Notes under the pieces: generated by a model | Seen by the model: only the letters and a program-made list of their open reading frames with translations | The model's database searches: none | What the model was told of the DNA's origin: nothing | NCBI GenBank assembly: GCA_039807685.1 | Contig: JBDHRR010000001.1 | Span: 60,505 to 124,504, forward strand | Origin: Burkholderiales bacterium | GTDB lineage: Bacteria > Pseudomonadota > Gammaproteobacteria > Burkholderiales > Casimicrobiaceae | Direction: 5' to 3' | DNA: 64,000 nucleotides | Position numbers and translations under genes: made by a program | In this document: positions 16,625 through 46,523 of the stretch, piece by piece | Layout of the letters: each line of letters starts with the position of its first letter | How positions within the stretch are numbered: position 1 is the stretch's first letter

Positions 16625-16798
16625 GATCGCCTTCGCACGCCCGGCGTGCGTTGACGCAGGTCAAGCCGGTCGGCTCCGGCCTCGCGAGGGCAACGGGCGC
16701 CGCCGGCTGGGGGCGCGGCGGCGCGGGCAACGACGCCGCGCTTGACCAAATGTCGGCGCGCCGAAATACTCACCGGTTCCTCCCGCGATTGCACACCC

Positions 16799-22303: not shown

Positions 22304-22771
22304 ATGAACGCGCGCGACATCCGTACGCTGCTGCGTAACGACCACGACGAGATCCTCATCCTGGCCCGCGACATGTACGAGTCCGAGAGCGGGGACGAGC
22401 GCCGCGCACTGCTGCGGCAATTGCGGCCGGCGCTCTTCCTGCACGCGCGCGCCGAGGAGCGGGACGTCTACGACGCCCTCCTCGCGCGCGACAACGACGA
22501 GCTCCGGACGCTCGCCTACGAGGGCTACGTCCGGCATGGCATCGTCGACGATCTCGTGGAGAAGCTCGTCAAGAGCCGCAAGACCGAAACCGACGAGTGG
22601 AAGGCGTATGCGAAGGTCCTCTTCGACGTCCTCGAGCAGCGCATCGAGGATGAACGCACGCACCTCCTGCCGGTGCTCGAAGAGATCTTCGACGACGACG
22701 CGCGGGAAGCGATGGGCCGCCGCTTCAATGCGACCAAGGCGCGGCTGTCGATGAAGCTCAAGGCGGCGTAA
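22304..22771 (+). CDS. Hemerythrin/HHE-domain protein (partly degenerate)
   Basis: NDHDEI, HARAEERDVY, VRHGIVD; start may be 22259. Confidence 0.72.
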   Translation: MNARDIRTLLRNDHDEILILARDMYESESGDERRALLRQLRPALFLHARAEERDVYDALLARDNDELRTLAYEGYVRHGIVDDLVEKLVKSRKTETDEWKAYAKVLFDVLEQRIEDERTHLLPVLEEIFDDDAREAMGRRFNATKARLSMKLKAA

Positions 22772-24191
22772 CGGACGCTTCCTCGGCGGGCCGCGCGTGG
22801 ATCGGCACGTTGACCTCGATCAGCGTGCCACCGTCGGGTCGCCGCGAGATCGCGAACTCACCGTGCAGCGCGCGTACGCGCTGGCGCATTCCCGCGATTC
22901 CATGTGACAGCAGGTTGCCCTGCGCATCCTCCGGGATGCCGATCCCGTCGTCCTCGATCAGCAAGATGACGTCGGTAGCCGTGGCGCCGAGGTCGACGCG
23001 CACCGTCTTCGCCCGAGCGTACTTCACGATGTTGGTGAGCGCCTCCTGCAGGATGCGGTAGAGCGCGATTGCGACGTCGGACGGGATCCGGCTATCGTCG
23101 CCCGGCGTGTCGATCGTGCACGCGAGCCCGGCGCGGTCGCAGACCTCGCGGACCTGCCAATCGAGCGCTGCGCTGAGGCCGAGGTTGTCGAGCAGCGTCG
23201 GCCGCAGGTCCTCGATGATCCGCCGCTTGATCTGCACGCCGTCGTCGAGCGCTTTCTGCGCGCGTTCGAGCTTGGCCGTGACCTGCGGCTCGTGGTGCTT
23301 GCGCAGGTAGTCTTCCACCCACGCGATGTCCATCTTCGCGCTCACCAGGATGCCGCCCAATTCGTCGTGGATGTCACGGGCGAGCTTCGACTTTTCGTCC
23401 TCCCGCACGCGTTGCAGGTAGCTCGACAGCTCGGACAGTTCTGCCGTGCGCTGCTCGACCTCGCTTTCGAGGCGTCGCTTGTCCTCGACCATCGTGCGCC
23501 GGCGCGCCTCGCGCTGCTGCGCGTCACGGCGGGCGAGGAGCCACACCACGAGCAGCAGGGCAATGGCGAAGCCGGTCATGATCTGCATGCCGAGGCGGGC
23601 GAAGGCGACGTCGGCAGACCAGCGATTCATGGCGGCCGTGAGCTGCTGCTGCTGCGCGGCGGCCATGCCGTCGACTTCCGCGCGGATGTCGTCCATGGCG
23701 CGCCGGCCGATGCCGGTATCGAGGAGCGCTTGCGCCGCCGAGTCGCCGTTTCGCTTGTACAGCGCGAGCGCCGACTCGAGTTCGGCGAGTTTCTGGCCGA
23801 CCAGGCCGTTGAGCTTGGAGAGCGCATCGCGCTCCTGCGCGGTTCCGTACGTCACCAGCATTTCGCGCAACCGGTTGAAGGTGCCGCCGATCTTCGGCAG
23901 TGCATTGTTGTACGGCGTGAGATATTCCACCTTTCCAGTGAGGAGATAGCCGCGCTGCCCGGTCTCGGCATCGACCACGAGTGCGAGCGCCTCGTGCAAC
24001 GACGCCTGCAGTTCGAGCGCCGCGGCGATCTGCCGGTTGGCCACTTCGAGTCGCCGATACCCGAGTTCGGCGTACACGGCGATGGCGATCGACGCGATCA
24101 TGCCGAGGACGAGCGGGGCGACGAGCTTCAGCGGGAGAACGTGCTTCACGGGTATGGGCAGGTGCGCGACGGCATCGTTGCCGCAGCGCAA
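22758..24191 (-). CDS. CHASE3-domain sensor histidine kinase (HisKA_3)
   Basis: DAETGQRGYLLTGKVEYLTPY (CHASE3); LARDIHDELGG (H-box); LYRILQEALTNIVKY, EDDGIG, HGIAGMRQR. Confidence 0.9.
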   Translation of the reverse strand: MRCGNDAVAHLPIPVKHVLPLKLVAPLVLGMIASIAIAVYAELGYRRLEVANRQIAAALELQASLHEALALVVDAETGQRGYLLTGKVEYLTPYNNALPKIGGTFNRLREMLVTYGTAQERDALSKLNGLVGQKLAELESALALYKRNGDSAAQALLDTGIGRRAMDDIRAEVDGMAAAQQQQLTAAMNRWSADVAFARLGMQIMTGFAIALLLVVWLLARRDAQQREARRRTMVEDKRRLESEVEQRTAELSELSSYLQRVREDEKSKLARDIHDELGGILVSAKMDIAWVEDYLRKHHEPQVTAKLERAQKALDDGVQIKRRIIEDLRPTLLDNLGLSAALDWQVREVCDRAGLACTIDTPGDDSRIPSDVAIALYRILQEALTNIVKYARAKTVRVDLGATATDVILLIEDDGIGIPEDAQGNLLSHGIAGMRQRVRALHGEFAISRRPDGGTLIEVNVPIHARPAEEASVTPP

Positions 24192-27407: not shown

Positions 27408-28028
27408 CTAGCCCGGCGCGATGCCGGCGTGGGATCCAGCCGATTCCACGAGCTGGATGAGTTGCGCCGGCGAGCGGGCGCCGAGCTTGCGCATCGCTCG
27501 CGAGCGGTGGACCTTCACCGTGCTCTCGGTGCACGCGAGGTCCGCCGCAATCTGCTTGTTGAGGAGTCCGCCGGCTACCCGAGTGAGAACCGCCCGCTCG
27601 CGCTGCGTGCAACGTGCCAGGAGGTCGTGCGCGCGGGCGGCGTGACGGGCATCGGCGTGACTCGTGATCGCGCGGGTCGCCGCCGCCTCGATCGCCGCGA
27701 TGAGCGTGCCGTCGTCGGTCGGCGATGGCAGCACGTCGATGACGCCGGCGCGCATCGCGCGCACCACGAAGCGCAGGTCGACTCCCCGATATACGACGAT
27801 CACGGCAGCGCCGATCGCGCACAGCCGCTGGCAGAGCTGCGTATCCACTTCGGGTGAGCTGTCGTCGACGTCGATCACCACGCACGTGGGCGTCGCCAGG
27901 GTTGCGGCGGCGCCCCAGACCGCGAGCGAGTCGACCGTGTCGATCCGATAGCGATCCGGAAGCCGGAGGGAGGCGAGGCGGGTGGTTGCGGTGGAGTCGC
28001 AGACGACGCGAATGATCGGAGGCTGCAT
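27408..28028 (-). CDS. FixJ-like LuxR regulator with atypical receiver domain
   Basis: C-terminal TQRERAVLTRVAGGLLNKQIAADLACTESTVKVHRSRAMRKL; VRAMRAGVIDVLPSP where FixJ has GAxDFxxKP. Confidence 0.75.
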   Translation of the reverse strand: MQPPIIRVVCDSTATTRLASLRLPDRYRIDTVDSLAVWGAAATLATPTCVVIDVDDSSPEVDTQLCQRLCAIGAAVIVVYRGVDLRFVVRAMRAGVIDVLPSPTDDGTLIAAIEAAATRAITSHADARHAARAHDLLARCTQRERAVLTRVAGGLLNKQIAADLACTESTVKVHRSRAMRKLGARSPAQLIQLVESAGSHAGIAPG

Positions 28029-28219: not shown

Positions 28220-29260
28220 TCATCGCGGCGGCTCGGATCGCGCTGCGGTCGATCCGCGCGGCGGCCGTGTTGGCGTCGGTGCCCGCGATGCGCGGGCGCC
28301 CCCGGCGACGATTCCCAGCGTCATGACGAGGAGGGTAGCAACGACGTTGTGCAGGGTCGCCGCCACGAGCGGACGGATACCGATCGAGGTCGCGGCGCCG
28401 ATGACCACCTGCGCGGCAACGAGCACCACCAGCCACACCGCGAGTCGACGCCGCGTCGCGCGCAGGCGCCATGCCAGCAGGCCAACCGCGAGCGCAAACG
28501 CCAGCGCGACGATGCGGTGCGCAACCTGCAGTCCTTGCCGGGCGCCGGCATCCAACGCGGGCGACGCTTGCCACGGATCGAATGCCGCGACGCTCGGTCG
28601 CGCGCCGCTCATGCACAGCGGCGTGGCACAGGCGTCGATCGCGTGCCGGGCGCCGATCATCGTGCCGCTGTACGCGAGGAGGGCGACGAGCGCCAAGGCC
28701 ACGAGCGCGCTGCGGGTGATCGCGGCGCCGGCCGGCGCGCTGGCGTCGACGGCGGGCGAGCCCGCTTCCCCGCGGCGGTGCAACGCTGCCGCGACCCACC
28801 CGAGGACAGCGGTCAGGAGGAGCCCGCCGACGAGGTTGCCGAGCGTCACCAGTGGCAGGTCGTGCGGGGTATAGCGACCCAACCACGCGAGGAAGGCGGT
28901 CACGGTCACTGCCACGACGGCGGCGACGCGTCCCGAGACGGCGAGCGACGTCCAGCCGAGCACGGTCACGACGAGAACGAGAACGCCGACGGTCGTCGCG
29001 CTCACCCGGTGCAGCGCGCGGGCGCTGCGCACGCCGGGGAGATCGTCGGTCTTCGCGGTGACCGCAGCCGGCGGGTGGGACGTGGTGCCGGGAGCGGGGC
29101 TGGCGGCGATGCCCGGCGCTGCGGCGGTCGCATGCGCGGTCCGATAGCACGCCGGCCAATCGACGCAGCCCACCCCGTTCTGCGCATGACGGATGAAGGC
29201 GCTCGACGCGGTGATGCACACCGTGAGCAGCGCCGCGACGAGCGCGACGAGCCGGATCAT
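28220..29260 (-). CDS. ctaA: COX15/CtaA (heme A synthase)-family protein with altered catalytic residues
   Basis: GCVDWPAC loop, second Cys pair CATPLC, ALHR, VAHR, TLHN; the second substrate-site His appears as N (TLGNL). Confidence 0.75.
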   Translation of the reverse strand: MIRLVALVAALLTVCITASSAFIRHAQNGVGCVDWPACYRTAHATAAAPGIAASPAPGTTSHPPAAVTAKTDDLPGVRSARALHRVSATTVGVLVLVVTVLGWTSLAVSGRVAAVVAVTVTAFLAWLGRYTPHDLPLVTLGNLVGGLLLTAVLGWVAAALHRRGEAGSPAVDASAPAGAAITRSALVALALVALLAYSGTMIGARHAIDACATPLCMSGARPSVAAFDPWQASPALDAGARQGLQVAHRIVALAFALAVGLLAWRLRATRRRLAVWLVVLVAAQVVIGAATSIGIRPLVAATLHNVVATLLVMTLGIVAGGARASRAPTPTRPPRGSTAARSEPPR

Positions 29261-30693
29261 CGGGCCGGACGCGCCGCGATCACGCTCGCCAGCACCACCC
29301 ACACGAAGAGGACGCCGCCGGCGATGGCGAGCAAACCGCCCAGCCCCATCAAGCCCATGCCCGCCACCTCCTGCGTGGTGCGCAGCGTCTGCTCGGCACC
29401 CGCCACCTTGCGCTGCACGCCGTAGCCGCCGGACCACAGCAGGCCCAGGATGTGCAGCAATTGCCCACCGCCGTACAGCCACGGCTGCCAGTCGGCGAGC
29501 CGTCCGCGGACCTCACGAAAGCCCAGGCGCGGCAGGAGCGCGTACGCCAACCCCATGAGCGCCAGCGTCACGCCGACGATCGAGCCGTGGTAGTGCGCCG
29601 GAATCCGCACGTCGGAGCCCTGGATGAGGAAGCCGATCAGGCCCCCGGCCGCGAACAGCAGTAGCGAGGCAACGAGCGCCGCGCGCAGCGGTCGCGTCAC
29701 CGGGGTCGTCGCCCGCTGCCGCACCAGCGCCACCGCGAGTGCCAGCACCATCGGCAGGATGGCGAGCCCGCCGCCGAAGCGCATGAGCCAGGTCATCATC
29801 CTGCGATACTCGACCGAGACCACGGTCCAGTTGAGATAGATGAGCGGCGCGACGAATACCGAGACGAGACCGATCGCGTAGACGAGGACGACCACGCGCG
29901 GACTCAGCGGCAGCGGCGAGCCGGCAAGCGTGGCGAGCCACGCCCAGGCGACCAGCATGAGGAGCGTCCATGTGAACTGGATGACGTGCCCGGGGCCCCA
30001 GAACAGGAGTTCGTAATAGGTGAGCGCGTCGACGTCGCGCGGAACCTCGGCGAGCGACCACGCCAGCGCCAGCAGCGCAACCGCGCTCGATACCGCGGCG
30101 GCCTTGAGGCCGAAGCGCAGCGCATCGGCCCCGTCGAGGCGCAGGCTCATGCGCGCCGGCGCGACGAACGAGCGCAGGGTGAGGAGCAGGAAGCCCGCGC
30201 CCAGCACGACGAGTCCGGCGAGGAAAGTGTCATTGTCGAGGACCGGCACGTAGTTCGACATCACCGGTACGGCAGCGCCGGTGAAGGGGGCCGCCGCCAT
30301 CAGTGCGGTGCCGGCGGCGGTCACCGCGAGCGCGAGCCACCCCAGCCAGACGAAACGCGGCGACGTATCGAGTGTCCACAGCATGCCCGCCATCGACACG
30401 AACCAGACCAGCACCGACAGGTCGACGTGAACGACGAGCGCGACCCGGAAGAAATCCCCTGCCGGCACGATTCCGGCGAAGAACGGCGTGCGGGCGAGCA
30501 CCAGCAGGATCGAGAACACGCCGGCGCCGATCAGCGCCGCGACACCCAGCAGCAGCCAGCCGGTGGCGATCGAGCGCTGCGCGGTGGCGGGAATCGCGAT
30601 CTCGAAGCGGGCGTCGCGTATCCCGCGCGCGACGCCGCCGAGCACGCGCGCCGGCTCCGCCGATGAGGTGCTGCTCAGCGCGCGCTGCGGCAT
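29257..30693 (-). CDS. Divergent heme-copper-superfamily subunit I paralog lacking the His-His pair
   Basis: About 12 TM; VVHVDLSVLVW (helix II), FWGPGHVIQF (helix VI), PAHYHGSIVG (helix X); no HH in the helix VII region. Confidence 0.72.
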   Translation of the reverse strand: MPQRALSSTSSAEPARVLGGVARGIRDARFEIAIPATAQRSIATGWLLLGVAALIGAGVFSILLVLARTPFFAGIVPAGDFFRVALVVHVDLSVLVWFVSMAGMLWTLDTSPRFVWLGWLALAVTAAGTALMAAAPFTGAAVPVMSNYVPVLDNDTFLAGLVVLGAGFLLLTLRSFVAPARMSLRLDGADALRFGLKAAAVSSAVALLALAWSLAEVPRDVDALTYYELLFWGPGHVIQFTWTLLMLVAWAWLATLAGSPLPLSPRVVVLVYAIGLVSVFVAPLIYLNWTVVSVEYRRMMTWLMRFGGGLAILPMVLALAVALVRQRATTPVTRPLRAALVASLLLFAAGGLIGFLIQGSDVRIPAHYHGSIVGVTLALMGLAYALLPRLGFREVRGRLADWQPWLYGGGQLLHILGLLWSGGYGVQRKVAGAEQTLRTTQEVAGMGLMGLGGLLAIAGGVLFVWVVLASVIAARPAR

Positions 30694-30744: not shown

Positions 30745-31251
30745 TCATCGGATGACGACGCCGCCTTGATCGGGCACGAAGTCGATGAGGACGACCTGTC
30801 CGGGGGCGAGCTTGATCCGACGCTCCGCCTCGTGATTGAAGCCCTTGACGCGAACGCTGTCGTTCACCTGCACGCGCAGGAGATGCTCGCCGGCGGGAAT
30901 CGGCTGCCGGCGATAGCCGCTCGCCGCGCCGTCGCGACGCAGCCCTGCCGGCGCGAACGTCTCGTCCAGCACCAGCTTGCCGTCGAGATCGACGCGCACG
31001 TGCACCGGCGAACGCTCGCGCGGGCAGTCCATCTGCGCGCGCAGTTGTGGCGACATCTTGGCGAGCTCCTCGGGACTGCGCGGACGGCAGTCGGTGGTGA
31101 GCTGGCCGGGCGCGCGGAACGACAGCCGCAGGAGCGCCTGATCGGGCGGCAGGTGCTGGTACGCGGGCGCCGTCGAGAAATAGCCGATGAAAGCAGCGAA
31201 CAGGATGTAGAGGATCGCCTGTCCGCCGTAGCGCAACGCCGAGTTAGCCAT
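30745..31251 (-). CDS. Hypothetical membrane-anchored protein with two Cys
   Basis: Single N-terminal TM (QAILYILFAAFIGYF), TTDCRPR and MDCPRER, beta-rich C-terminus; overlaps the upstream gene's stop. Confidence 0.75.
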   Translation of the reverse strand: MANSALRYGGQAILYILFAAFIGYFSTAPAYQHLPPDQALLRLSFRAPGQLTTDCRPRSPEELAKMSPQLRAQMDCPRERSPVHVRVDLDGKLVLDETFAPAGLRRDGAASGYRRQPIPAGEHLLRVQVNDSVRVKGFNHEAERRIKLAPGQVVLIDFVPDQGGVVIR

Positions 31252-32836
31252 GGATACTGTCTCCGAGCGGGTGGCGGGTCGTCCCGCCGTCTGCCTTTCT
31301 TGTCTCGCCCGCGGGGAGCCGCGCGCGGAACGATTCGATGTCGCTGTCGAGTGCGGCGCCCTGTTCGCGGCCGGCATGGATCACCGCGAGCCGCCTCCGA
31401 TCGACGCTGCGGCGCAGCCACGGCGGACGCAGGCCGGCGATGCGCTCGAGCGTCCATCGTACCCCGAAGCGGTATTCGCAATCGCCCATCGCGCACGTTG
31501 CCACCACGACCCCGGCCGCGCCCGCGCGCAAGCCGTAGTCGACGAAGGTCGGCGGCAGCATGCCGGTACACGGCAGTCCGATGACGATCGTGCCGGGTTG
31601 CCTGGTCGGCTGCGCACCGTGGTGACAGGCGAAGACCAGGAGTGAGCCGCTCGCGTCGGGTCGGCCGAATGCAGTGTCGATCGCTGCGCGCACCGTATCC
31701 ACCGTGTAGTACGGCAGGTCGATGCCACTCACCAAGGCGGTGACCGAACGGAACGGCACCGCCGACGGGCAGGCGCCCGCGCAGATCCCGCAGGAGGCAC
31801 AGCGATCGGCGTCGACCACCGCGATCTCGCCCCTGCCGCTCGGATGCGGCGCCATGGCGATCGCGGCGTAGGGGCAATCCTCGAAGCAGCGCCGGCAGCC
31901 GTTGCAATACAGCGGGACGACCACCGCCGGCGCCGGTCGCGGCGTGCGACCGAGCCACGGCAGCACCGCGAGCAGCAGCGTCAGGCCTACGCTCGCGATC
32001 CAGACCGCCTCCGGCGAAGTGGTGTAGATGGCCGGCAACGGCGCGAGATAGAACCAGTCGATCGGCAGGTCGGTAGGGATTCGCGCGAGGTCGGCGGGCG
32101 GCCCCGACACCGCCGGTACGACGAGCGACAGCGCGACGAGCGCGGCGAGACTCGCCAGCGCCACGCGCCGCGTGGTGCCGGTCTGTGGGCGGGTGAGCCT
32201 TTGCACGTGTGCCCACATGGTAAGCAGCAGCACGAGCGGCAGCCCGATGTGCAGGAAGGCAACCAGCGAGAACAGGCGGTCGGACACCGCGCTCTCGGCG
32301 ATGAAATTGCGCACCAGCGCCGGCCCGAAGCCGGGAAGGACGCCGAACCATTCGGTGGTGGCGGTGGCGACGAACTGCGCGAGCGTGTCCCACACCATCC
32401 AGTAGCCGACCACACCGGCGGCGACCGCGAGCCAGAGCGTGGGGATGCCGCTCACCCAGCTGTACCAGCGAAAGCCGCGGAAGCGCCCGAGCAGCAATTC
32501 GCGCAGGAGATGCACGATGATCACCACCACGAAGGCGTCCGACGCGTAGCGGTGGAGGCTGCGCATCAGCCCGCCGGCCCACCGCTGGCCGTGCGTGAGT
32601 GTCTCGACCGAGGCGTACGCACCGACGACGCTGGTGTCGTAGAAGATGTACAGGTAACCGCCGGTCAACGCGATCAGCCAGAAGAGGTAGAACCCGAGTC
32701 CCCCGAGCTGGCGCAATGGATTGTCGTCGACGCCGCAGAGGCGGTCGAGGGCATGCTCGCCGGCGCGCCACGCGCGCGCCGCCGCGGCGTCGGCCGCGAC
32801 CGCGGCATCGGGAGTCGAAGACAGGTTGAACGCCAT
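31244..32836 (-). CDS. Cytochrome b - 2x[4Fe-4S] - FlpD/MvhD-type Fe-S fusion protein
   Basis: Four heme His (SLHRY, IVHLLR, FLHIG, WAHVQ); IDWFY; CNGCRRCFEDCP and CASCGICAGACP; FACHHG, LPCTGMLPP, TCAMGDCEY. Confidence 0.85.
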   Translation of the reverse strand: MAFNLSSTPDAAVAADAAAARAWRAGEHALDRLCGVDDNPLRQLGGLGFYLFWLIALTGGYLYIFYDTSVVGAYASVETLTHGQRWAGGLMRSLHRYASDAFVVVIIVHLLRELLLGRFRGFRWYSWVSGIPTLWLAVAAGVVGYWMVWDTLAQFVATATTEWFGVLPGFGPALVRNFIAESAVSDRLFSLVAFLHIGLPLVLLLTMWAHVQRLTRPQTGTTRRVALASLAALVALSLVVPAVSGPPADLARIPTDLPIDWFYLAPLPAIYTTSPEAVWIASVGLTLLLAVLPWLGRTPRPAPAVVVPLYCNGCRRCFEDCPYAAIAMAPHPSGRGEIAVVDADRCASCGICAGACPSAVPFRSVTALVSGIDLPYYTVDTVRAAIDTAFGRPDASGSLLVFACHHGAQPTRQPGTIVIGLPCTGMLPPTFVDYGLRAGAAGVVVATCAMGDCEYRFGVRWTLERIAGLRPPWLRRSVDRRRLAVIHAGREQGAALDSDIESFRARLPAGETRKADGGTTRHPLGDSIHG

Positions 32837-32879: not shown

Positions 32880-33731
32880 TCAGGCGCGGCGCGTCCGCCG
32901 CAACTCGCGCAGCGTGAACCAGGCGATTGCCCCGAGCGTGGTCAAGCCGGCGAAGATCTCGAAGAACAGCGAATAGTTGAGACGGTAGCCGCCGCCTTGC
33001 GGATCGTACACGGTACAGTACAGGATCACCTTGTCCCAGACGTTGCCCAGTGTGAGTTCGCGCGAGGCCTGCCCCGAGCGCAATTCCTTGAGCGGTTGCA
33101 CGAGCATCGGCAGGTCGAAATTCTCGCCGTAGACCTGGCGGTAGATGACGCCTTCGGCATCGACGATGGTGACCTGCGTGACGTGATCGAAGCCCTTGGC
33201 GGTGGCCTCGTAGACGAAGCCCAGGTTGGCGGTGAGTGCCTCGACCTGCGTCGGATCGGGGCTCAGGAAATGCCAGCCGGGCTCATCGATGCGGTTCTGG
33301 CGCTTGAAGGCGGCCATTGCCGCCGGCGTGTCAAAGGGTTGATTGAAGCCGATCGACACCACGGTGAAGGCGTCGTCGCCCAAGGCCCGGCGCGCCTCGC
33401 GCACGGCCTGCGCGAGGAACTGCGTGGCGACCGGACAGGCCTGGAAGCAGCCGGTGTACACGAGGCTGACCAGCAGGGGTCGTCCCTGGTAGTCGCGCAG
33501 GCGAACGTCCTTGCCGTTGCTGTCGCGCAGGCGGATGTCGGCAACCGGCCGGCCGATCGCCGCCTGGCTCGTCGTGACGGCGCGCTGGTAATCGGGCGCC
33601 CGGGGTGCCTTGGCGCTGTCTTCTGCCGTCGCCCGCGCCGGCAGCGCGACCATGCAGGCGGCGGCGCCGGCCGCGAGCGAGGTGATCAGGATGCGGGCGA
33701 GCGGTGCGCGGCGGGAGCTGCGACTCGGCAC
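32880..33731 (-). CDS. SCO-family copper chaperone with C-terminal membrane extension
   Basis: YTGCFQACP (CxxxC) and GFDHVTQ His; C-terminal TM FFEIFAGLTTLGAIAWF. Confidence 0.88.
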   Translation of the reverse strand: MPSRSSRRAPLARILITSLAAGAAACMVALPARATAEDSAKAPRAPDYQRAVTTSQAAIGRPVADIRLRDSNGKDVRLRDYQGRPLLVSLVYTGCFQACPVATQFLAQAVREARRALGDDAFTVVSIGFNQPFDTPAAMAAFKRQNRIDEPGWHFLSPDPTQVEALTANLGFVYEATAKGFDHVTQVTIVDAEGVIYRQVYGENFDLPMLVQPLKELRSGQASRELTLGNVWDKVILYCTVYDPQGGGYRLNYSLFFEIFAGLTTLGAIAWFTLRELRRTRRA

Positions 33732-33735
33732 GGCG

Positions 33736-34602
33736 TCAGGCCCCGAGCGAGGACCTCATCCAGCCGTCGGCGATGGTTCCCATGAGGAGCAGCGAGAGCT
33801 GGACGAGCGAGGCGTGGAAGCTTGCCAGCGCATTGGCCCGATTCGGCGTGCGGGCCAGCAGCCAGGCACGCCACACGAAGAGCGCACTGCCGGTCGCTGC
33901 ACATGCGAGGTAGAGCCAACCCGGGCCGAAGAATGCAAGCGCGAGCGAACAGCCGACCATGACGAGCGCGTGCCAGAAGATCGCCCAGGCCGCGAAGCGG
34001 TCGCCCTTGACCACCGGCAGCATCGGCACCCCGACGCTCGCGTAGTCGTCGCGGCAGACGATCGCGAGACTCCAGAAGTGCGGCGGCGTCCACAGGAACA
34101 GCACGAGGGCGAGGACGAGCGCCTCCGGCGAAAGCTGCGGGGAGACCGCCGCCGCGCCGGCCAGCACCGCGAAGCTGCCGGCCAGCCCTCCGATCACGAT
34201 GTTCCACGCGCTGCGACGCTTGAGCCAGACGGTGTACACGATCGCGTAGACGAAGGCGCCCAGGAACGTGTACAGCGCCGCGGCCGCGTTGGTGGCGAGC
34301 CACGCCGCCGCCACCGCGATTCCGGTCAGCGCGACGATGAGTACCAGCCAGCCGCGATGGTGCCGCATGTGCCCGCTCACGAACGGGCGGCGACGCGTCC
34401 GCGTCATCCGCGCGTCGAGATCGACCTCGTAGAACTGGTTGAAGGCACCTGCGGCCGCCGACGACAGCAGCACGGCAAGCGTCAGGACCACGCCTTGCCA
34501 GGGGGCGAGGGTGCTGCCGGGCGACACCATCAGCCCGGCGACCGCGGTGAGCGCGATCGCCACGCCGATGCGCAGCTTGAAGAGATTGAGCAGCGCCTTC
34601 AT
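33736..34602 (-). CDS. ctaB: Protoheme IX farnesyltransferase (heme o synthase)
   Basis: LFKLRIG, NQFYEVDLDARMTRTRRRP, YTVWLKRR, LWTPPHFWSLA, DYASVGVPMLP. Confidence 0.93.
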   Translation of the reverse strand: MKALLNLFKLRIGVAIALTAVAGLMVSPGSTLAPWQGVVLTLAVLLSSAAAGAFNQFYEVDLDARMTRTRRRPFVSGHMRHHRGWLVLIVALTGIAVAAAWLATNAAAALYTFLGAFVYAIVYTVWLKRRSAWNIVIGGLAGSFAVLAGAAAVSPQLSPEALVLALVLFLWTPPHFWSLAIVCRDDYASVGVPMLPVVKGDRFAAWAIFWHALVMVGCSLALAFFGPGWLYLACAATGSALFVWRAWLLARTPNRANALASFHASLVQLSLLLMGTIADGWMRSSLGA

Positions 34603-34678: not shown

Positions 34679-36385
34679 CTAGCTCAGACCCCAGACCGTC
34701 GACAGGTACTTCCAGTTGACGAAGTAGTACAGCACGAAGGCGACCAGGAACACCATCGCGAACACGAAGGTACCCGGAACGCCCCAGCCGCCGCCGTGGC
34801 CGCCATCCTCGACGAGCGAGACCTCCACCGGCAGGCGCAGCGGCGTCACCTTGGTCGAGTAGGCACCCGAATCCAGTCGCTTGCCGAAGAGGATGGTGCC
34901 GACCGTCACGGTGATGTACATCACGCCGCCGATGACCGCGATGATGCCGCCGATCGCGAAGATGGCGATCATGAGCAGTGCCGTTCCCGGGAACTCGTAG
35001 GGGAATGCGGCGCCGGCGAAGGTGATGTCCCAGCTGCGACGCGGCACGCCGAGCGTGCCGGCGCCCATCATGGCGAGCGTGAACACACCCATGCCGAGAC
35101 CGAAGACGTACGGCTGCAGCTTCGCCCAACCCGGGAGGATCAGCTCGCGATTGAAGAGCGTGGGCAGCAGGAAGTACGTCAGCGCCATGAAGGCGAGCGT
35201 GGTACCGATCACCACCGTGGCGTGGAAGTGCCCCGGCACGTAGATCGTGTTGTGGATGATCATGTTGAGCTGCTCGGTGCCCATCATCACGCCCGAGATG
35301 CCGCCCAGGAAGCCGAAGCCGATGAGCGAGATGAACATCCCCGAGAACACCGGATTGCTCCACGGCGCCTTGCGCAGCCACTCGAAGAGCCCCTTCGTGT
35401 AACCCTTCGCCCGCTGCGCGGCTTCGATCGCGCCCGGCACGGTGAGGCCGTGCAGCATCGACGCCAGCACCGCGAGGTACATCGCGTAGCTCGTGTTGAA
35501 CACCTTCCACTCGGTGCCCACCGCCGGGTCGGCCAGGATGTGGTGCGCCGACGCGAGTTGCAGGAACAGGATGTAGAGGAGGAACGCGGAGCGGCTCACC
35601 CGCTCGGACATCGGCTTCGCGCCGAAGACGATGGCGGCGATCGCATACCACACCGCGATGTGCGCCGACACGTTGATCTGCTGCGACGAGTGACCGAACG
35701 CCCACCAGATCACGCGGTACATCGCCGGATCGATGTGGCTGATGTATCCCGCCGACCACAGGAAGGTGGGGATGAGGATGATCGCACCCGAGGCGATCGT
35801 GAAGATCGCGATGATGCAGGCGGTGATCGCGCCGAAGGTGACGAGCGGAACCGAGCCCTCGTAGGTCTTCTCGGACTTGGCGATGACGAGCGTACCCAGG
35901 AACACGAAGCAGCCGATGAGCGCGCCGACCGCGAACAGGATGAGGCCCAGGTAGAACGCCGGAATCGCCGGCAGCGGCACGTAGGACGTCATCATCACCG
36001 TCGCGTTGCCGGTGAAGATCGCGACGTTGAAGGTGATGGTGCCGATCACCATCAGCGCCCAGGCGAGCCAGGCGAGTCGCGGGGTGGCGATCCGGCAGCG
36101 CAGCAACGTCGACGAGCAGAAATAGAGGATCGCGATCTCGAAGAAGATGATCCAGACGACCAGCATGTCGAGACCGTGCGCGGTCAGGTACATGTAGAAG
36201 TTGTCGGCGTCGAGCAGGTGGATCGCCTGCCAGCGCGTGAGCGTGATCAGCAGGGCGAGAACTCCGCCGATCAGCAGCGCGACGACGGCGGCGACGGCGT
36301 TGGCCTTGATGAGCAACTCGGCCGACTTGTGGAATTGCAGCCCCGTGCGGGGGCAGATGCGGTACTGCGGGACGGCGGTGGCCAT
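34679..36385 (-). CDS. B-family-derived heme-copper subunit I; probable eNOR-type nitric oxide reductase catalytic subunit
   Basis: All six His present (LTAHG; GHSSQQ; SAHHI; GHFH). Helix VI reads H-S-S-Q-Q (35678-35692) instead of HPxxY, so there is no His-Tyr cross-link. Confidence 0.8.
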   Translation of the reverse strand: MATAVPQYRICPRTGLQFHKSAELLIKANAVAAVVALLIGGVLALLITLTRWQAIHLLDADNFYMYLTAHGLDMLVVWIIFFEIAILYFCSSTLLRCRIATPRLAWLAWALMVIGTITFNVAIFTGNATVMMTSYVPLPAIPAFYLGLILFAVGALIGCFVFLGTLVIAKSEKTYEGSVPLVTFGAITACIIAIFTIASGAIILIPTFLWSAGYISHIDPAMYRVIWWAFGHSSQQINVSAHIAVWYAIAAIVFGAKPMSERVSRSAFLLYILFLQLASAHHILADPAVGTEWKVFNTSYAMYLAVLASMLHGLTVPGAIEAAQRAKGYTKGLFEWLRKAPWSNPVFSGMFISLIGFGFLGGISGVMMGTEQLNMIIHNTIYVPGHFHATVVIGTTLAFMALTYFLLPTLFNRELILPGWAKLQPYVFGLGMGVFTLAMMGAGTLGVPRRSWDITFAGAAFPYEFPGTALLMIAIFAIGGIIAVIGGVMYITVTVGTILFGKRLDSGAYSTKVTPLRLPVEVSLVEDGGHGGGWGVPGTFVFAMVFLVAFVLYYFVNWKYLSTVWGLS

Positions 36386-36396
36386 GGTTCCCCCGA

Positions 36397-36936
36397 TTAC
36401 TTGACGTAGAGCCGCGAGACCATCTTGTGATGGCCGATGCCGCAGAATTCGTTGCAGACGATCGCGTACTGGCCCGAGCGATTGGGCGTGACCGTCACCA
36501 CGTGCTGGTAGCCGGGAAGGACCTGGATGTTGATGTTCTCAGGCTGCAGCGAGAATCCGTGCTGGTAATCCATCGAGCTCAGGTTGAGGCGATAGCTCTT
36601 GCCCTTCTCGAGTTCGAGGATCGGCCACCAGTCCCACAGGCGCGCGATGAGGTAGATGTCGCTGCCCGCGGGCGGCGCCACCACCGGCACCTTGCCCTCG
36701 CCCTCGGTGCGCACGGTGTACTTGTCGACCATGTCCTGCGCGGCCTTGGCGAAGAGTTCGGGCTTGACGCGGTACGTTTCCGATGACAGGTTCTGCTTAC
36801 CGAACACGTGCCAGTACGGCATCATGAAGAACATGATCATGCACCACACGAAGGCGATGACGATCCAGATGATCTCGATCTTGTCGACCGGTTGCTTCCA
36901 CCAGATGCGTTGCGGCGGGGGCAGTATGGCGCTCAC
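36397..36936 (-). CDS. CuA-containing subunit II (single TM, ba3-type architecture)
   Basis: DYQHGF...CNEFCGIGHHKM CuA motif; one N-terminal TM. Confidence 0.92.
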   Translation of the reverse strand: MSAILPPPQRIWWKQPVDKIEIIWIVIAFVWCMIMFFMMPYWHVFGKQNLSSETYRVKPELFAKAAQDMVDKYTVRTEGEGKVPVVAPPAGSDIYLIARLWDWWPILELEKGKSYRLNLSSMDYQHGFSLQPENINIQVLPGYQHVVTVTPNRSGQYAIVCNEFCGIGHHKMVSRLYVK

Positions 36937-36964: not shown

Positions 36965-37144
36965 TCACTTGGCGAGCGGCGTCACCGGCACCGTTGCGAT
37001 TTCCATGACGCCCCAGAGGATATAGAGCACGGTGGGAATCACGACGCCCAGGAACAGCAGCAGGAACGGGTTGTCGAGGATCTGCTGCATCACGGGGATG
37101 CGCTCTTCTTGGTTTTCGGGCTGCGATCGAGTATGGTCAGCCAT
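36965..37144 (-). CDS. Small single-TM subunit (subunit IIa-like), 59 aa
   Basis: MADHTRSQPENQEERIPVMQQILDNPFLLLFLGVVIPTVLYILWGVMEIATVP; RBS GAAGGGGGAG; first gene of the operon. Confidence 0.75.
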   Translation of the reverse strand: MADHTRSQPENQEERIPVMQQILDNPFLLLFLGVVIPTVLYILWGVMEIATVPVTPLAK

Positions 37145-37227: not shown

Positions 37228-37241
37228 TTGACCTGCATCAA
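37228..37241. promoter_or_regulatory. FNR/DNR/NnrR-type box
   Basis: TTGAC-CTGC-ATCAA, one mismatch to TTGAT-N4-ATCAA, about 90 bp upstream of the eNOR operon start in the divergent intergenic region. Confidence 0.75.
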
Positions 37242-37452: not shown

Positions 37453-39372
37453 TTGCTCAAGATAGTCCAAGGCTTCCTGCAGTGGTTTTTCCTGCGGATG
37501 GAGGCGATCGGCAACCGGGTATTCGGCGATCGGCTGAACCCGATGTACTACCTGGGCGCGACGAGCTACTGGATGTTCTGGATCGTCGTCGCCAGCGGCC
37601 TGTACGTCTACGTTTTCTACGAGACCGGGGTCGACAAGACATACGCCTCGATGGAGGCGATCACGCACGGGCAGTGGTTCGCCGGCGGCATCATGCGCAG
37701 CGTGCACCGCTACGCGTCCGACGCGATGGTGCTGACCATGCTGCTGCACATGCTGCGGCATTTCGCCTTCGACCGCTATCGCAGCTTCCGCGCCTTCTCG
37801 TGGGTCACCGGCGTGATCGTGCTGTGGCTCGTCTACGCCTCGGGCGTGAACGGCTTCATGCTGCCCTGGGACAAGCTCGCGCAGTTCGTGGTGATCGGCA
37901 CCACCGAATGGCTCGATTCGCTGCCGGTGTTCAACGGCATCCTGACGCGCAATTTCATCACCCCCGACGCGATCACCGACCGGCTTTTCTCGCTCCTGTC
38001 GTTCCTGCACATCGGCATTCCGCTGGTGGTGATGCTCGCGCTGTGGATCCACACGCAGCGCGTGCCGCGCGCGTCGCAGATTCCGCCTCGCCGTCTCGCC
38101 TTCGGACTGCTCGCGATGCTGCTCGTGCTGTCGCTCGTGAAGCCGGTGGTGAGCCAGGCGCCCGCCGATTTCAACACGGTGCCGATGCGGCTCGACTTCG
38201 ACTGGTTCTATCTCACCGTCTATCCGCTCATCTACGCCTGGGATCCGCTCAAGCTGTGGATCCTCTGTGCCGGCGTCACCGTACTGCTGCTGGCGTTGCC
38301 GTGGCTGCCACCGGCGCGCAGCGGCAAGGGCCGCGCGTATCACCTGACGGCGCACCCGGGTCGCCAGGGCGCACCGGTGCGCGTCGGCGAGACGCTGCTC
38401 GACGCGGGGCTGCGCGCGGGCATCGCGCTGCCTTACGAATGCCGCTCTGGCGGCTGCGGCGTGTGCAAGGCGACGATGATCGGCGGCGAGGTCGAGATGT
38501 CGGGCTACCAGCCCTCCGCGCTCTCCGCCGAGGAGCGCAGCGCGGGTCGCATCCTGCTGTGCTGCGCCCGCGCGCTGTCCGATGTCGAGTTCGAATACGA
38601 GGCGGATGCGGCCGCCCGCGGCACGAAGATCGAGACCTACGAGACGCGCGTCGAGCGACTGGCGCCGCTCGCCCACGACGTGATGCTCGTCGCGCTGCGC
38701 CTGCCCGAGGGACGCAAGATCGAGTTCGAGGCCGGCCAGTACGTGAACGTCGTGCTCGACGGCGGCGCACGACGCAGCTACTCGTTCACGACGCCGTCGG
38801 GCGCCACCGACCTCATCGAACTGCACGTGCGGCTGATGCCTGGCGGGTTGTTCACCTCGCGCGTCTTCGAATCGATGAAGGTGGGCGATCCCATCACCAT
38901 CGAGGGCCCGGTGGGGTCGTTCGTGCTGCACGAGCCGAGCGAGAAGCCGCTCATCTTCGTCGCCGGCGCGACCGGCTTCGCGCCGGTCAAGAGTCTCCTC
39001 GAACAGGCTTTCCACATGGGGATCCAGCGGCCGCTCTACCTGTACTGGGGCGTGCGCCGTCGCCGCGATCTCTACCTCACCGAGTTGCCGGAACGCTGGG
39101 CGCGCGAGCACCCCAATTTCCACTTCGTGCCCGTGCTCTCGGAGGCGGCCCCCGAGGACGACTGGCACGGCCGCACGGGCCTCGTCCACGAGGCGATCCT
39201 CGCCGATTTCCCGAACCTGTCGGGCTTTGCGGTCTACGCCTGCGGTTCGGTGCGCATGGTCGCCGCGGCGCGGCCGGCGTTCGTCACGCAGGGCCTGCAC
39301 GAGGATGCGTGCTACTCCGACGCGTTCATCCCCGCCGGTGGCGCCGAGCCGGGAGTCGCGCCGCCCGCGTAA
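37453..39372 (+). CDS. Cytochrome b - [2Fe-2S] ferredoxin - FAD/NAD(P)H reductase fusion
   Basis: Heme His SVHRY, LLHML, FLHIG, WIHTQ; FDWFY; CRSGGCGVC...LLCC; RSYS (FAD); AGATGFAP and YACG (NAD). RBS GGAGGA before TTG. Confidence 0.88.
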   Translation: MLKIVQGFLQWFFLRMEAIGNRVFGDRLNPMYYLGATSYWMFWIVVASGLYVYVFYETGVDKTYASMEAITHGQWFAGGIMRSVHRYASDAMVLTMLLHMLRHFAFDRYRSFRAFSWVTGVIVLWLVYASGVNGFMLPWDKLAQFVVIGTTEWLDSLPVFNGILTRNFITPDAITDRLFSLLSFLHIGIPLVVMLALWIHTQRVPRASQIPPRRLAFGLLAMLLVLSLVKPVVSQAPADFNTVPMRLDFDWFYLTVYPLIYAWDPLKLWILCAGVTVLLLALPWLPPARSGKGRAYHLTAHPGRQGAPVRVGETLLDAGLRAGIALPYECRSGGCGVCKATMIGGEVEMSGYQPSALSAEERSAGRILLCCARALSDVEFEYEADAAARGTKIETYETRVERLAPLAHDVMLVALRLPEGRKIEFEAGQYVNVVLDGGARRSYSFTTPSGATDLIELHVRLMPGGLFTSRVFESMKVGDPITIEGPVGSFVLHEPSEKPLIFVAGATGFAPVKSLLEQAFHMGIQRPLYLYWGVRRRRDLYLTELPERWAREHPNFHFVPVLSEAAPEDDWHGRTGLVHEAILADFPNLSGFAVYACGSVRMVAAARPAFVTQGLHEDACYSDAFIPAGGAEPGVAPPA

Positions 39373-44876: not shown

Positions 44877-46352
44877 TCAGCCTTGCGCCGGCAACGGAGC
44901 CGGAACCTGATGCGGCTCAGGCTCGGGGATCGGTACCGGGATCGGATTGATGAGCCGCGCGCGGGCATCCGCGGCCGTGTGCCAGAGATTCCACGCCATC
45001 ACCACCATGCCGGTGAGGATGAGCACGCCGCCGAACCAGCGCACGACGTACAGCGGCTTGATCGCGATCAGGCTGTCGATGAACGGATAGACGAGCGAGC
45101 CGTCGGGGTGCGTGGCGCGCCACATGAGACCCTCGGTGACGCCGGCGATCCACATCGAGATCACGTAGAGCAGCGTGCCGGCCGTGTGCAGCCAGAAGTG
45201 CAGCTCCATCCCGCCGTGCGAGTGCATCGCCGGCCGGCCGAGCGCGCGCGGCGCCATCGCGTACAGCGAACCGATGGTGATCATCGCCACCCAGCCGAGC
45301 GACCCCGAGTGCACGTGCGCGATCGTCCAGTCGGTGTAGTGCGACAGCGCGTTGACCGTCTTGACCGCCATCAGCGAGCCCTCGAACGTCGACGCCGCGT
45401 AGAAGACGAGCGAGAGCACCATGAACTTGGCCGCGGGGTCGCTGCGCAGCCGGTGCCACGACCCGTTGAAGGTGAGGAGGCCGTTGGCGGCCGAACCCCA
45501 GCTCGGCATGAGGAGGACGAGCGAGAACGCCATGCCGACCGACTGCACCCAGTCGGGCAGCGCGGTGAACATGAGGTGGTGCGGCCCCGCCCACATGTAG
45601 ATCGAGATCAGCGCCCAGAAATTGACGATCGAGAAGCGGTAGCTCCAGAGCGGCTGCTGCGCCTGCCGCGGGACGAAGTAGTACATCATCCCGAGGAAGC
45701 CCGCGGTGAGGAAGAAGGCCACCGCGTTGTGGCCGTACCACCACTGCACCAGCGCGTCGACGGTGCCCGAATACACCTGGTAAGACTTGCCCATCGAGAC
45801 GGGAAGCGCGATGTTGTTGACGATGTGCAGGAGGCCCACCGCGATGATGAAGGCGCCGTAGTACCAGTTGGCGACGTAGATGTGGCGGATGCGTCGCTTG
45901 GCGAGCGTGCCGAAGAAGACAACGCCGAAGCTCACCCAGACCGCGGCGACCGCGATGTCGACGAACCACTCGGGCTCCGCGTACTCCTTGCTCTGCGTGA
46001 TGCCGAACGGCATCGTCGACATCGCCAGGATGCAGCCCAGTTGCCAGCCCCAGAAGGTGACGTTGGCGAGCGCGGTGAAGGCGAGCCGCGTGTGCGCGGT
46101 GCGCTGCACGACGTAGTAGCAGGTGCCGATCAGCGCCGACCCGCCGAAGGCGAAGATCACGCCGAACGTGTGGTTGGCGCGGATGCGGCTGAAGGTGAGC
46201 CAGGGGACGTCGAAATTGAGCGCCGGCCAAGCGAGTTCCGCCGCCGCGTAGACGCCGATCGACATGCCGACGATGCCCCACACCGCCGCGGCGAGCAGGA
46301 ACAACCGTACGATCTGGTCGTTGTAGGTTTCCTTGGGTCGCGTGACTGGCAT
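44877..46352 (-). CDS. ccoN: cbb3 oxidase subunit I
   Basis: [17 protein letters not shown] (C-family Tyr present), [15 protein letters not shown]; start 46352 or 46424. Confidence 0.95.
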
Positions 46353-46509
46353 GGCGGGCGTGGGCGTGATCGGCCGGAAGTGGGCGCGGGCCTGACACGT
46401 CGGGCCAACCAGCGGGGGCGGCACGACCGCGCGCTGCCGGCGTGAGCCCGCATTTTCACCTCATCACATGCCTTTCATCAAGCGGCGCGTGCCCGAAGCG
46501 ATCGGGAGA

Positions 46510-46523
46510 TTGATTCCGATCAA
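46510..46523. promoter_or_regulatory. FNR box upstream of ccoN
   Basis: Perfect TTGAT-TCCG-ATCAA. Confidence 0.88.

What the first reader, a model, noticed from the sequence alone, without database searches (positions are those of the whole stretch)
34679..36385. 'Cytochrome c oxidase' subunit I is probably a cryptic nitric oxide reductase (eNOR)
Seen: all six canonical His are present, but helix VI reads WWAFG-H-S-S-Q-Q-IN (35678-35692) with Gln where A/B-family oxidases have the cross-linked Tyr (HPxxY). There is also no C-family Tyr before the HH (LQLASAHH). Known, from recollection: B-family-derived eNORs carry a CuA subunit II, a-type heme and an active-site Gln; the characterised member is from Rhodothermus marinus and the Magnetospirillum 'cytochrome a1' belongs to the family. 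Inference: the organism can reduce NO to N2O without norB/norZ, so standard denitrification screens would miss it.
Basis: partly seen in the sequence, partly recalled or inferred. Interest (0 to 1): 0.78.

Follow-up and report, generated by a model that had tools for sequence, protein, structure and literature searches.

The report
eNOR-type nitric oxide reductase operon

Summary
ORF 34679-36385(-) encodes a 568-aa heme-copper subunit I with all six His ligands. Helix VI reads G-H232-S-S-Q235-Q236, with Gln236 where Thermus ba3 has the cross-linked Tyr237.

I identified genome G030 as Rhodothermus marinus DSM 4252. Its eNOR (570 aa, GHGSQQ; position fits Rmar_0161) falls in one clade with the window protein (bootstrap 100, SH-aLRT 99), apart from B-family oxidases. 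The window protein matches all 40 positions invariant in 156 eNOR-clade sequences. A CuA subunit II lies next to it. It sits in a tight nine-gene operon with ctaB, sco1, two accessory proteins, a degenerate subunit-I paralog and a ctaA-like gene. An FNR-type box lies upstream.

Among 301 genomes of the same order, 36 of 39 eNOR carriers have nirS. Of 85 nirS carriers, 26 have eNOR as their only heme-copper NOR.

One inference is wrong for this genome. A cNOR-type norCB-ytfE cluster with all catalytic ligands lies on contig C1. nirS is present and nosZ was not found.

The family (Hemp & Gennis 2008; Murali 2024) and this operon layout (Ferrigenium straubiae preprint, 2026) are published. This is a new, mis-annotated member of a known kind, of low to moderate interest.

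The parts
37228..37241 (+). FNR/DNR-type box TTGACCTGCATCAA, about 85 bp upstream of the first operon gene, in the divergent intergenic region
   Evidence: three matches to TTGAYNNNNRTCAA in the window against 0.07 expected by chance. One of the others (46510) lies just upstream of ccoN. Sequence read.
36965..37144 (-). Small single-TM protein (59 aa from the ATG at 37144, preceded by GGAAGGGGGAG); possibly a small eNOR subunit
   Evidence: A homologue lies upstream of subunit II in 76 of 80 Burkholderiales-type loci and 23 of 83 loci of other phyla.
36397..36936 (-). eNOR subunit II, 179 aa, one TM helix plus a CuA cupredoxin domain (H126, C161, E163, C165, H169, M172; E21 at the TM start)
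   Evidence: Pfam COX2. Best PDB matches are T. thermophilus ba3 subunit II and its CuA domain, E about 3e-17, with the ligand motif aligned. R. marinus subunit II is also 179 aa and has E21 and CNEFCGIGH.
34679..36385 (-). eNOR subunit I, 568 aa: heme ligands H70/H388 (low spin) and H386 (high spin); non-heme metal ligands H232, H281, H282; Q235-Q236-x-N238 replaces V-Y-x-W of the B family; K-path-like Y247, S260, S309, H312, T315
33736..34602 (-). Heme O synthase CtaB
   Evidence: NCBIfam TIGR01473 at 263.5 bits, above the cut-off. Conserved at this position in 71 of 80 loci.
32880..33731 (-). SCO1/SenC-type copper chaperone, probably for CuA assembly
   Evidence: Pfam PF02630. Conserved in 70 of 80 loci.
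31244..32836 (-). Cytochrome b (N-terminal di-heme domain) fused to 2x[4Fe-4S] and an FlpD/MvhD-like domain; candidate electron-transfer partner
   Evidence: Pfam. Found next to eNOR I in 68 of 80 Burkholderiales-type loci and 61 of 83 loci of other phyla. Described for the Ferrigenium eNOR operon.
30745..31251 (-). 168-aa membrane-anchored protein with no family match; its start overlaps the previous gene by 8 nt
   Evidence: Conserved in 60 of 80 and 36 of 83 loci.
29257..30693 (-). Degenerate subunit-I paralog, 478 aa. It keeps the helix II His, GH-V-I-Q and HYH, but has no HH pair
   Evidence: Pfam COX1 at 55.7 bits. Sequence read. Present in 55 of 80 and 34 of 83 loci.
28220..29260 (-). 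Divergent CtaA-like heme A synthase homologue, 346 aa, last gene of the operon
   Evidence: PF02628 at 81.9 bits at C128:88823-89752, which is window 28319-29248. Start codon located. A canonical CtaA lies elsewhere on the contig.
37453..39372 (+). Divergently transcribed cytochrome b fused to [2Fe-2S] ferredoxin and an FAD/NAD(P)H reductase, 639 aa
   Evidence: Pfam and NCBIfam. Present in 61 of 80 Burkholderiales-type loci. Described in Ferrigenium.

Best explanation
Genes 36936-34679(-) encode the two core subunits of an eNOR-family nitric oxide reductase, a B-family-derived heme-copper enzyme. The likely mechanism is as follows. A periplasmic donor reduces the binuclear CuA centre of subunit II (shown: all ligands are present). 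Electrons then pass to the low-spin heme (H70/H388) and on to the high-spin heme (H386) and the adjacent non-heme metal held by H232, H281 and H282. There, two NO are reduced to N2O and water (inferred from the R. marinus enzyme). Gln236 replaces the redox-active cross-linked Tyr needed for four-electron O2 reduction, so O2 reductase activity is not expected. Protons probably arrive from the cytoplasm through a K-channel-like path (E21 of subunit II, T315, H312, S309, Y247), which would make the reaction electrogenic (inferred). The operon supplies its own cofactor and assembly genes (ctaB, ctaA-like, sco1). This points to an a-type heme enzyme whose maturation needs some O2. The FNR-type box upstream points to micro-oxic or NO-responsive expression (inferred). 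In this organism, which has nirS but no detected nosZ, the enzyme would work alongside a cNOR-type enzyme to remove NirS-derived NO, with N2O as the end product.
For: Identity of the fold: Pfam COX1; nearest solved structures are B-family ba3 oxidases at 1e-48, far ahead of the A family at 1e-6.

Anchor enzyme: G030 has contigs of 3,261,604 and 125,133 bp, and the second is 100% identical to NC_013502.1 of R. marinus DSM 4252. A Pfam COX1 scan listed three subunit-I genes there. The one that is neither A- nor B-family-like is a 570-aa protein with GHGSQQINL and an adjacent 179-aa CuA subunit. The preprint names Rmar_0161 as eNOR, which fits its position at 174 kb.

Phylogeny: the window protein and the R. 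marinus eNOR share a clade of 26 rows with UFBoot 100 and SH-aLRT 99. This clade is separate from Tyr-containing relatives and from the B family (quick tree).

Signature residues: all 40 positions that are at least 98% invariant in 156 eNOR-clade sequences and differ from the B family are matched. The six His, Q235, Q236, N238, Y247, S309, H312 and R449/R450 are invariant, and T315 is kept in 153 of 156.

Literature: Gln at the Tyr site is the published diagnostic for eNOR (PMC8756737). The R. marinus eNOR reduces NO and not O2, and carries heme As (PMC11214002).

Genomic context: nine genes with gaps of -8 to 76 nt. The same layout is described for Ferrigenium straubiae, where the eNOR subunits and both cytochrome b fusion proteins were found in the proteome under denitrifying conditions. 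There is an FNR-type box upstream.

Comparative genomics: 36 of 39 eNOR-positive genomes in the order carry nirS, against 49 of 262 eNOR-negative ones (odds ratio 52, Fisher p=1e-19, not corrected for phylogeny). eNOR lies within 20 kb of nirS in 15 genomes. Of 85 nirS-positive genomes, 26 have eNOR only and just 4 have neither eNOR nor cNOR/qNOR.
Against: No activity, metal content or heme type was measured for this protein or for any close (over 50% identical) relative. The characterised R. marinus enzyme is only 45-46% identical and lacks the accessory genes seen here. The genome also has a cNOR-type norCB, so eNOR is not needed to explain NO reduction in this organism. The co-occurrence statistics are not corrected for phylogeny. 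The FNR-type box is only a consensus match.
Confidence: 0.85

Rival explanations
1. It is an unusual B-family-like terminal oxidase that reduces O2 without the cross-linked Tyr, for example using another redox-active residue such as the invariant Y271 or Y247.
For: The closest solved structures are ba3 oxidases. The operon resembles an oxidase operon (ctaB, ctaA-like, sco1). The promoter box resembles that of the neighbouring cbb3 oxidase operon. A Tyr-retaining sister group exists.
Against: Gln at the Tyr site is invariant in 156 of 156 family members. Y271 lies ten residues (about three helical turns) before the HH pair, not at the C-family position as I recall it. The R. marinus family member showed no O2 reduction with several donors (PMC11214002), and the Magnetospirillum member was reported to lack cytochrome c oxidase activity (as cited). 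There is strong association and physical linkage with nirS.
Confidence: 0.04
2. In this lineage the enzyme is mainly a bc1-independent NO detoxification or redox-balancing module. It would be fed from cytoplasmic NAD(P)H or Fe-S donors through the two cytochrome b fusion proteins, or run in reverse as a quinol:NAD+ oxidoreductase coupled to NO reduction. It would not be a cytochrome-c-dependent respiratory NOR.
For: The cyt b-4Fe4S-FlpD fusion is adjacent to eNOR I in 68 of 80 and 61 of 83 loci across many phyla. The cyt b-2Fe2S-FNR fusion is present in 61 of 80 Burkholderiales-type loci. The genome already has a cNOR. The Ferrigenium preprint proposes a supercomplex with a quinol:NAD+ oxidoreductase.
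Against: The catalytic chemistry would still be NO reduction, so this refines the main explanation rather than replacing it. R. marinus eNOR works without these partners, with TMPD/ascorbate as donor. No interaction or activity data exist.
Confidence: 0.1
3. It acts on a different small substrate, for example as an N2O reductase or an NO dismutase, rather than reducing NO to N2O.
For: The genome lacks NosZ. Other HCO-derived families have been proposed for such chemistry (PMC11214002).
Against: Those proposals concern families in the cNOR/qNOR branch, not eNOR. The characterised eNOR produces N2O from NO.
Confidence: 0.01

Closest known systems
Rhodothermus marinus DSM 4252 eNOR (Rmar_0161 and its subunit II; Murali et al. 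2024, PMC11214002)
   Same: Same clade (UFBoot 100). Same helix VI motif G-H-x-S-Q-Q-I-N. Same six His. Same K-path-like residues (S309, H312, T315, Y247). A 179-aa CuA subunit II with E21 directly upstream.
   Different: Only 45-46% identical. The R. marinus locus lacks ctaB, sco1, the cytochrome b fusions, the degenerate paralog and the ctaA-like gene. It is from a thermophile of another phylum.
Ferrigenium straubiae (culture KS) eNOR operon (bioRxiv 10.64898/2026.01.22.701106)
   Same: A betaproteobacterial operon with eNOR II, eNOR I, heme O synthase, sco1, a protein of unknown function, one cyt b-FeS-FAD-NADH fusion and one cyt b-FeS fusion. It was mis-annotated as coxAB.
   Different: I did not retrieve its sequences, so identity was not measured. 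That operon is said to lack a ctaA copy, whereas this one ends with a ctaA-like gene. The preprint calls the cytochrome b fusions 'rather unusual', but here they are found in most eNOR loci.
Magnetospirillum magnetotacticum 'cytochrome a1-like' hemoprotein
   Same: Assigned to the eNOR family by Murali et al. [quoted passage not shown]
   Different: Sequence not retrieved here. Its function was never determined experimentally.
Thermus thermophilus ba3 (B-family O2 reductase; 1EHK, 1XME)
   Same: Best structural homologue of both subunits. Shares the six His, the CuA ligands and part of the K-path.
   Different: The V236-Y237-x-W239 motif of ba3 is replaced by Q-Q-x-N, and T312 by His. There are 40 family-specific substitutions.

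Membership tests
eNOR (heme-copper NO reductase, B-family derived) | Heme-copper subunit I with the six canonical His ligands | tested here: met
   H70, H232, H281, H282, H386 and H388 align to ba3 H72, H233, H282, H283, H384 and H386. They are invariant in 156 of 156 relatives.
eNOR (heme-copper NO reductase, B-family derived) | Gln in place of the helix VI cross-linked Tyr (the diagnostic used in PMC8756737, after Hemp & Gennis 2008) | tested here: met
   Q236 aligns to ba3 Y237. The R. marinus eNOR has the same GH-x-S-Q-Q motif.
eNOR (heme-copper NO reductase, B-family derived) | No substitute Tyr at the C-family helix VII position | tested here: met
   The residue 6 before H281 is L275. 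The nearest Tyr, Y271, is at HH-10 (sequence). The C-family position is from my own knowledge of cbb3.
eNOR (heme-copper NO reductase, B-family derived) | Phylogenetic placement with the characterised eNOR, outside the B family | tested here: met
   A clade of 26 rows including R. marinus eNOR, with UFBoot 100 and SH-aLRT 99. SH-aLRT 99 in the 60-row tree rooted on an A-family sequence.
eNOR (heme-copper NO reductase, B-family derived) | Adjacent CuA-binding subunit II | tested here: met
   H126, C161, C165, H169 and M172 align to the ba3 CuA ligands. The gene lies 11 nt upstream of subunit I.
eNOR (heme-copper NO reductase, B-family derived) | Conserved K-channel-like proton path resembling the B family (including the S309 equivalent) | tested here: met
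   Y247, S260, S309 and T315 are retained and T312 is replaced by His. Y247, S309 and H312 are invariant across the clade, T315 is kept in 153 of 156, and S260 varies (S in 94, N in 62). E21 in subunit II is shared with R. marinus. Whether the path conducts protons was not tested.
eNOR (heme-copper NO reductase, B-family derived) | a-type heme (heme As) in both heme sites; ctaA/ctaB often in the operon | tested here: inconclusive
   ctaB (263 bits) and a ctaA-like gene (81.9 bits) are in the operon. The heme type itself cannot be determined from sequence.
eNOR (heme-copper NO reductase, B-family derived) | Reduces NO to N2O, does not reduce O2; non-heme Fe rather than Cu | not testable with these tools
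   Only genomic context is available: the association and linkage with nirS.
B-family O2 reductase (ba3 type) | H-P-x-V-Y motif with the cross-linked Tyr | tested here: not met
   H-S-S-Q-Q here. All 13 B-family representatives have V-Y at these columns.
cNOR/qNOR | Glu ligand four residues after the first metal His (H-x-W-V-E), plus a cytochrome c subunit or fused domain | tested here: not met
   The window protein has Q236 at that position and a CuA partner. By contrast, the separate contig C1 protein has HYWVEGVWE and a c-heme partner.

The most novel reading that the evidence does not exclude
In most eNOR-bearing lineages, though not in R. marinus, the enzyme is part of a larger, uncharacterised membrane module. 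The module would contain two paralogous di-heme cytochrome b fusion proteins (one with 2x[4Fe-4S]+FlpD, one with [2Fe-2S]+FAD/NAD(P)H), a 168-aa anchored protein and a degenerate subunit-I paralog lacking the metal His pair. Together these would link cytoplasmic NAD(P)H/Fe-S redox chemistry or the quinone pool directly to NO reduction, bypassing bc1 and cytochrome c.
Probability: 0.25. Interest if true: 0.6.

Novelty: new member of a known kind. Interest (0 to 1): 0.25.

Why it matters
[quoted passage not shown] Gene-based denitrification surveys that look only for norB/norZ therefore under-count NO-reducing, N2O-producing bacteria. In the sampled order, 26 of 85 nirS carriers would appear to lack any NOR.

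For this genome the practical result is a corrected annotation: nirS plus two heme-copper NORs and no nosZ. That predicts a truncated denitrifier that releases N2O.

This is not a discovery of a new system. The family, its diagnostic Gln, a characterised member and the betaproteobacterial operon layout are all published.

Tried and rejected
1. NCBIfam has no model that captures the protein; the best hit is CtaD at 66 bits against a cut-off of 670. HMM placement against curated eNOR/sNOR/gNOR models was therefore not possible, and a tree with an identified reference was used instead.

2. The supplementary datasets of Murali et al. (alignment, tree, leaf labels) are not held.

3. The first attempt to centre genome search on a locus id failed.

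4. I considered that contig C1, which carries the NorB-like gene, might be mis-binned. This was rejected: its GC is 0.692 against 0.685 for the genome, and its tetranucleotide correlation is 0.995 (rank 24 of 85 contigs). A 91%-identical relative exists in another Burkholderiales MAG.

5. I considered that the C1 protein might belong to the cNOR-related putative 'N2O red' family. The paper says the new families have novel active sites, whereas this protein keeps every cNOR ligand. I could not test this further because the supplement is not held.

7. No structure prediction was run. The tools return no coordinates, so active-site geometry could not be measured.

8. sNOR, gNOR and nNOR reference sequences were not obtained, so exclusion of those families rests on the active-site residue (Gln, not Asn or Asp) and on clustering with the R. 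marinus eNOR.

Full report
**The observation**

The ORF at 34679-36385 on the minus strand is open and encodes 568 aa. It matches Pfam COX1 over residues 27-469 at 220.6 bits. It falls far below every NCBIfam equivalog cut-off for the A family, quinol oxidases and cbb3.

Its nearest solved relatives are the B-family ba3 oxidases of Thermus thermophilus and entry 7deg, another cytochrome c oxidase subunit I (E about 1e-48). A-family enzymes follow only at 1e-6.

Mapping that HMMER alignment to native ba3 numbering gives:
- H70 = H72
- H232 = H233
- Q236 = Y237
- H281/H282 = H282/H283
- H386 = H384
- H388 = H386

The stretch WWAFG-H-S-S-Q-Q-IN occupies residues 227-238, and H232-Q236 correspond to bases 35678-35692. 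The residue six positions before the HH pair, where I recall the C-family oxidases place their Tyr, is L275.

**Family placement**

The literature defines eNOR by Gln at the cross-link Tyr position, a CuA subunit II and one K-type channel (PMC8756737). [quoted passage not shown]

The curated alignments of that paper are not held, so I needed a reference sequence. A scan of public genomes with a family alignment returned Rhodothermales loci. Searching that order gave genome G030. Its two contigs are 3,261,604 and 125,133 bp long, and the second is 100% identical to NC_013502.1, the plasmid of R. marinus DSM 4252.

A Pfam COX1 scan of that genome listed three subunit-I genes. The one that is neither A- nor B-family-like is a 570-aa ORF with 'GHGSQQINL', directly preceded by a 179-aa CuA subunit. 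Its position at 174 kb fits the locus tag Rmar_0161 given for eNOR in the preprint version.

In a maximum-likelihood tree (LG+C20+F+G4), the window protein, the R. marinus eNOR, a haloarchaeal homologue and homologues from a dozen phyla form one clade, with ultrafast bootstrap 100 and SH-aLRT 99. A 60-row tree rooted on the genome's own A-family CtaD gives the same clade at SH-aLRT 99.

Immediately outside this clade lie archaeal sequences that read GH-x-x-Q-Y and so retain the Tyr. Next comes a small family with altered metal ligands, and then the B family.

Across 156 full-length clade members, the six His, W228, Q235, Q236, N238, Y247, S309, H312 and R449/R450 are invariant, and T315 is kept in 153. 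The window protein matches all 40 positions that are at least 98% invariant in the clade and differ from the B family. Membership in the eNOR family is therefore well supported.

**Subunit II and the operon**

The upstream gene (36397-36936) best matches the ba3 CuA domain. It keeps H126, C161, C165, H169 and M172. Like the R. marinus subunit, it has E21 at the start of its TM helix, which is the position of the ba3 K-path entrance Glu.

Nine minus-strand genes are packed with gaps of -8 to 76 nt:
- a 59-aa TM protein
- subunit II
- subunit I
- ctaB (TIGR01473, 263 bits)
- sco1
- a cytochrome b-2x[4Fe-4S]-FlpD fusion
- a 168-aa anchored protein
- a 478-aa degenerate subunit-I paralog that lacks the HH pair
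- a divergent ctaA-like gene (PF02628, 81.9 bits)

A cytochrome b-[2Fe-2S]-FAD/NAD(P)H fusion is transcribed divergently.

The shared intergenic region holds TTGACCTGCATCAA at 37228-37241. The window has three such FNR-type boxes against 0.07 expected, and another sits just upstream of ccoN.

tblastn against 163 homologous loci shows that the whole layout is conserved in 55 to 78 of 80 Burkholderiales-type loci, depending on the gene. The cyt b-FeS-FlpD gene lies next to eNOR I in 61 of 83 loci from other phyla. None of the accessory genes occurs at the R. marinus locus.

A 2026 preprint on Ferrigenium straubiae describes essentially this operon. It shows the eNOR subunits and both cytochrome b fusions in the proteome under denitrifying Fe(II)-oxidising conditions, and notes the same mis-annotation as coxAB.

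**The rest of the genome**

The assembly is 3.8 Mb in 223 contigs, 97.7% complete. It holds the following:
- an A-family oxidase
- a cbb3 oxidase, also in the window (CcoN at 649 bits)
- the eNOR
- the degenerate paralog
- a NorB-like gene on contig C1

The C1 protein scores 207 bits against the Roseobacter cNOR (4xyd). It keeps every cNOR ligand: the His60 equivalent, HYWVEGVWE, HH, the Glu280 equivalent and HAH. It is preceded by a NorC-like di-heme cytochrome c and followed by a YtfE/DnrN-like gene.

The contig's composition fits the genome. Relatives of 70-91% identity occur in other Burkholderiales, Castellaniella and Thiobacillus.

nirS is present (513 bits on C223). nirK is absent. Neither NosZ clade was found; only the CuA domain of eNOR subunit II matched.

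The predicted phenotype is a nirS-type truncated denitrifier with two NORs and N2O as end product.

**Comparative test of function**

In one sample of 301 genomes of the order:
- eNOR occurs in 39 genomes (28 of 144 genera), nirS in 85, and a cNOR/qNOR homologue in 103.
- 36 of 39 eNOR carriers have nirS, against 49 of 262 non-carriers (odds ratio 52, Fisher p = 1e-19, not corrected for phylogeny).
- Among the 85 nirS carriers, 45 have only cNOR/qNOR, 26 have only eNOR, 10 have both and 4 have neither.
- eNOR and nirS lie within 20 kb of each other in 15 genomes.

This complementary pattern is what a functional NO reductase would show.

**Verdict**

The finding is real and correctly interpreted as an eNOR. 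However, the family (Hemp & Gennis 2008; Murali et al. 2024), its diagnostic residue, a characterised member, its abundance in Betaproteobacteria and this operon architecture are already in the literature. The gene is a new, mis-annotated member of a known kind.

What remains open is the role of the widely conserved accessory module.

Noticed in passing
Own genome, contig C1:8362-11774 (outside the window): A cNOR-type cluster: a NorC-like protein with two c-heme motifs (327 aa), a 562-aa NorB-like protein with all cNOR ligands and a C-terminal extension, and a YtfE/DnrN-like di-iron protein. No homologue above 35% identity was found in 300 sampled genomes of the order. [quoted passage not shown]
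   Followed up: partly
window 29257-30693 (-): A 478-aa subunit-I paralog inside the eNOR operon. It keeps the helix II His, GH-V-I-Q and HYH, but has no HH metal-ligand pair. Conserved in 55 of 80 Burkholderiales-type loci and 34 of 83 loci of other phyla.
   Followed up: partly
window 31244-32836 (-) and 37453-39372 (+): Two cytochrome b N-terminal domains fused to different cytoplasmic redox modules (2x[4Fe-4S]+FlpD; [2Fe-2S]+FAD/NAD(P)H). The first lies next to eNOR I in 61 of 83 loci from Myxococcota, Verrucomicrobiota, Planctomycetota, Rhodothermales MAGs and others. It is therefore much more widespread than the 'rather unusual' wording of the Ferrigenium preprint suggests.
   Followed up: partly
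window 28220-29260 (-): A divergent CtaA-like gene (81.9 bits, against 386.8 bits for the canonical CtaA elsewhere on the same contig) closes the operon.
   Followed up: partly
proteins P0131, P0132, P0133, P0145 (public metagenomes; Hodarchaeales and Thermoproteota): A sister group of eNOR with helix VI GH-x-x-Q-Y-[IV]-N. It shares eNOR-specific residues (E83, Q235, N238, Y271, H312 in window numbering) but retains the cross-link Tyr. It may be a Tyr-retaining intermediate between B-family oxidases and eNOR.
   Followed up: partly
proteins P0177, P0194, P0231, P0257 (one from a Dehalococcoidia MAG): A heme-copper family branching between the B family and eNOR. Helix VI reads F-H-x-x-H-Y, and helix VII reads L-Y-H where others have H-H.
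   Followed up: no
window 16651-16664 and 46510-46523: Two further FNR-type boxes. The one at 46510 (a perfect TTGAT-N4-ATCAA) lies just upstream of ccoN (cbb3 oxidase, window about 45021-46460). The eNOR and cbb3 operons, separated by ccoI/ccoS-type genes, thus appear to be under similar control.
   Followed up: partly
whole genome G000: No NosZ of either clade and no nirK, in a 97.7% complete assembly that has nirS and two NOR candidates. This predicts N2O as the end product.
   Followed up: yes
window about 27408-28000 (-) and 22758-24191 (-): A FixJ/LuxR-type response regulator lies directly downstream of the operon, and a membrane histidine kinase lies a few kb further. They may be regulators of the operon.
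   Followed up: no
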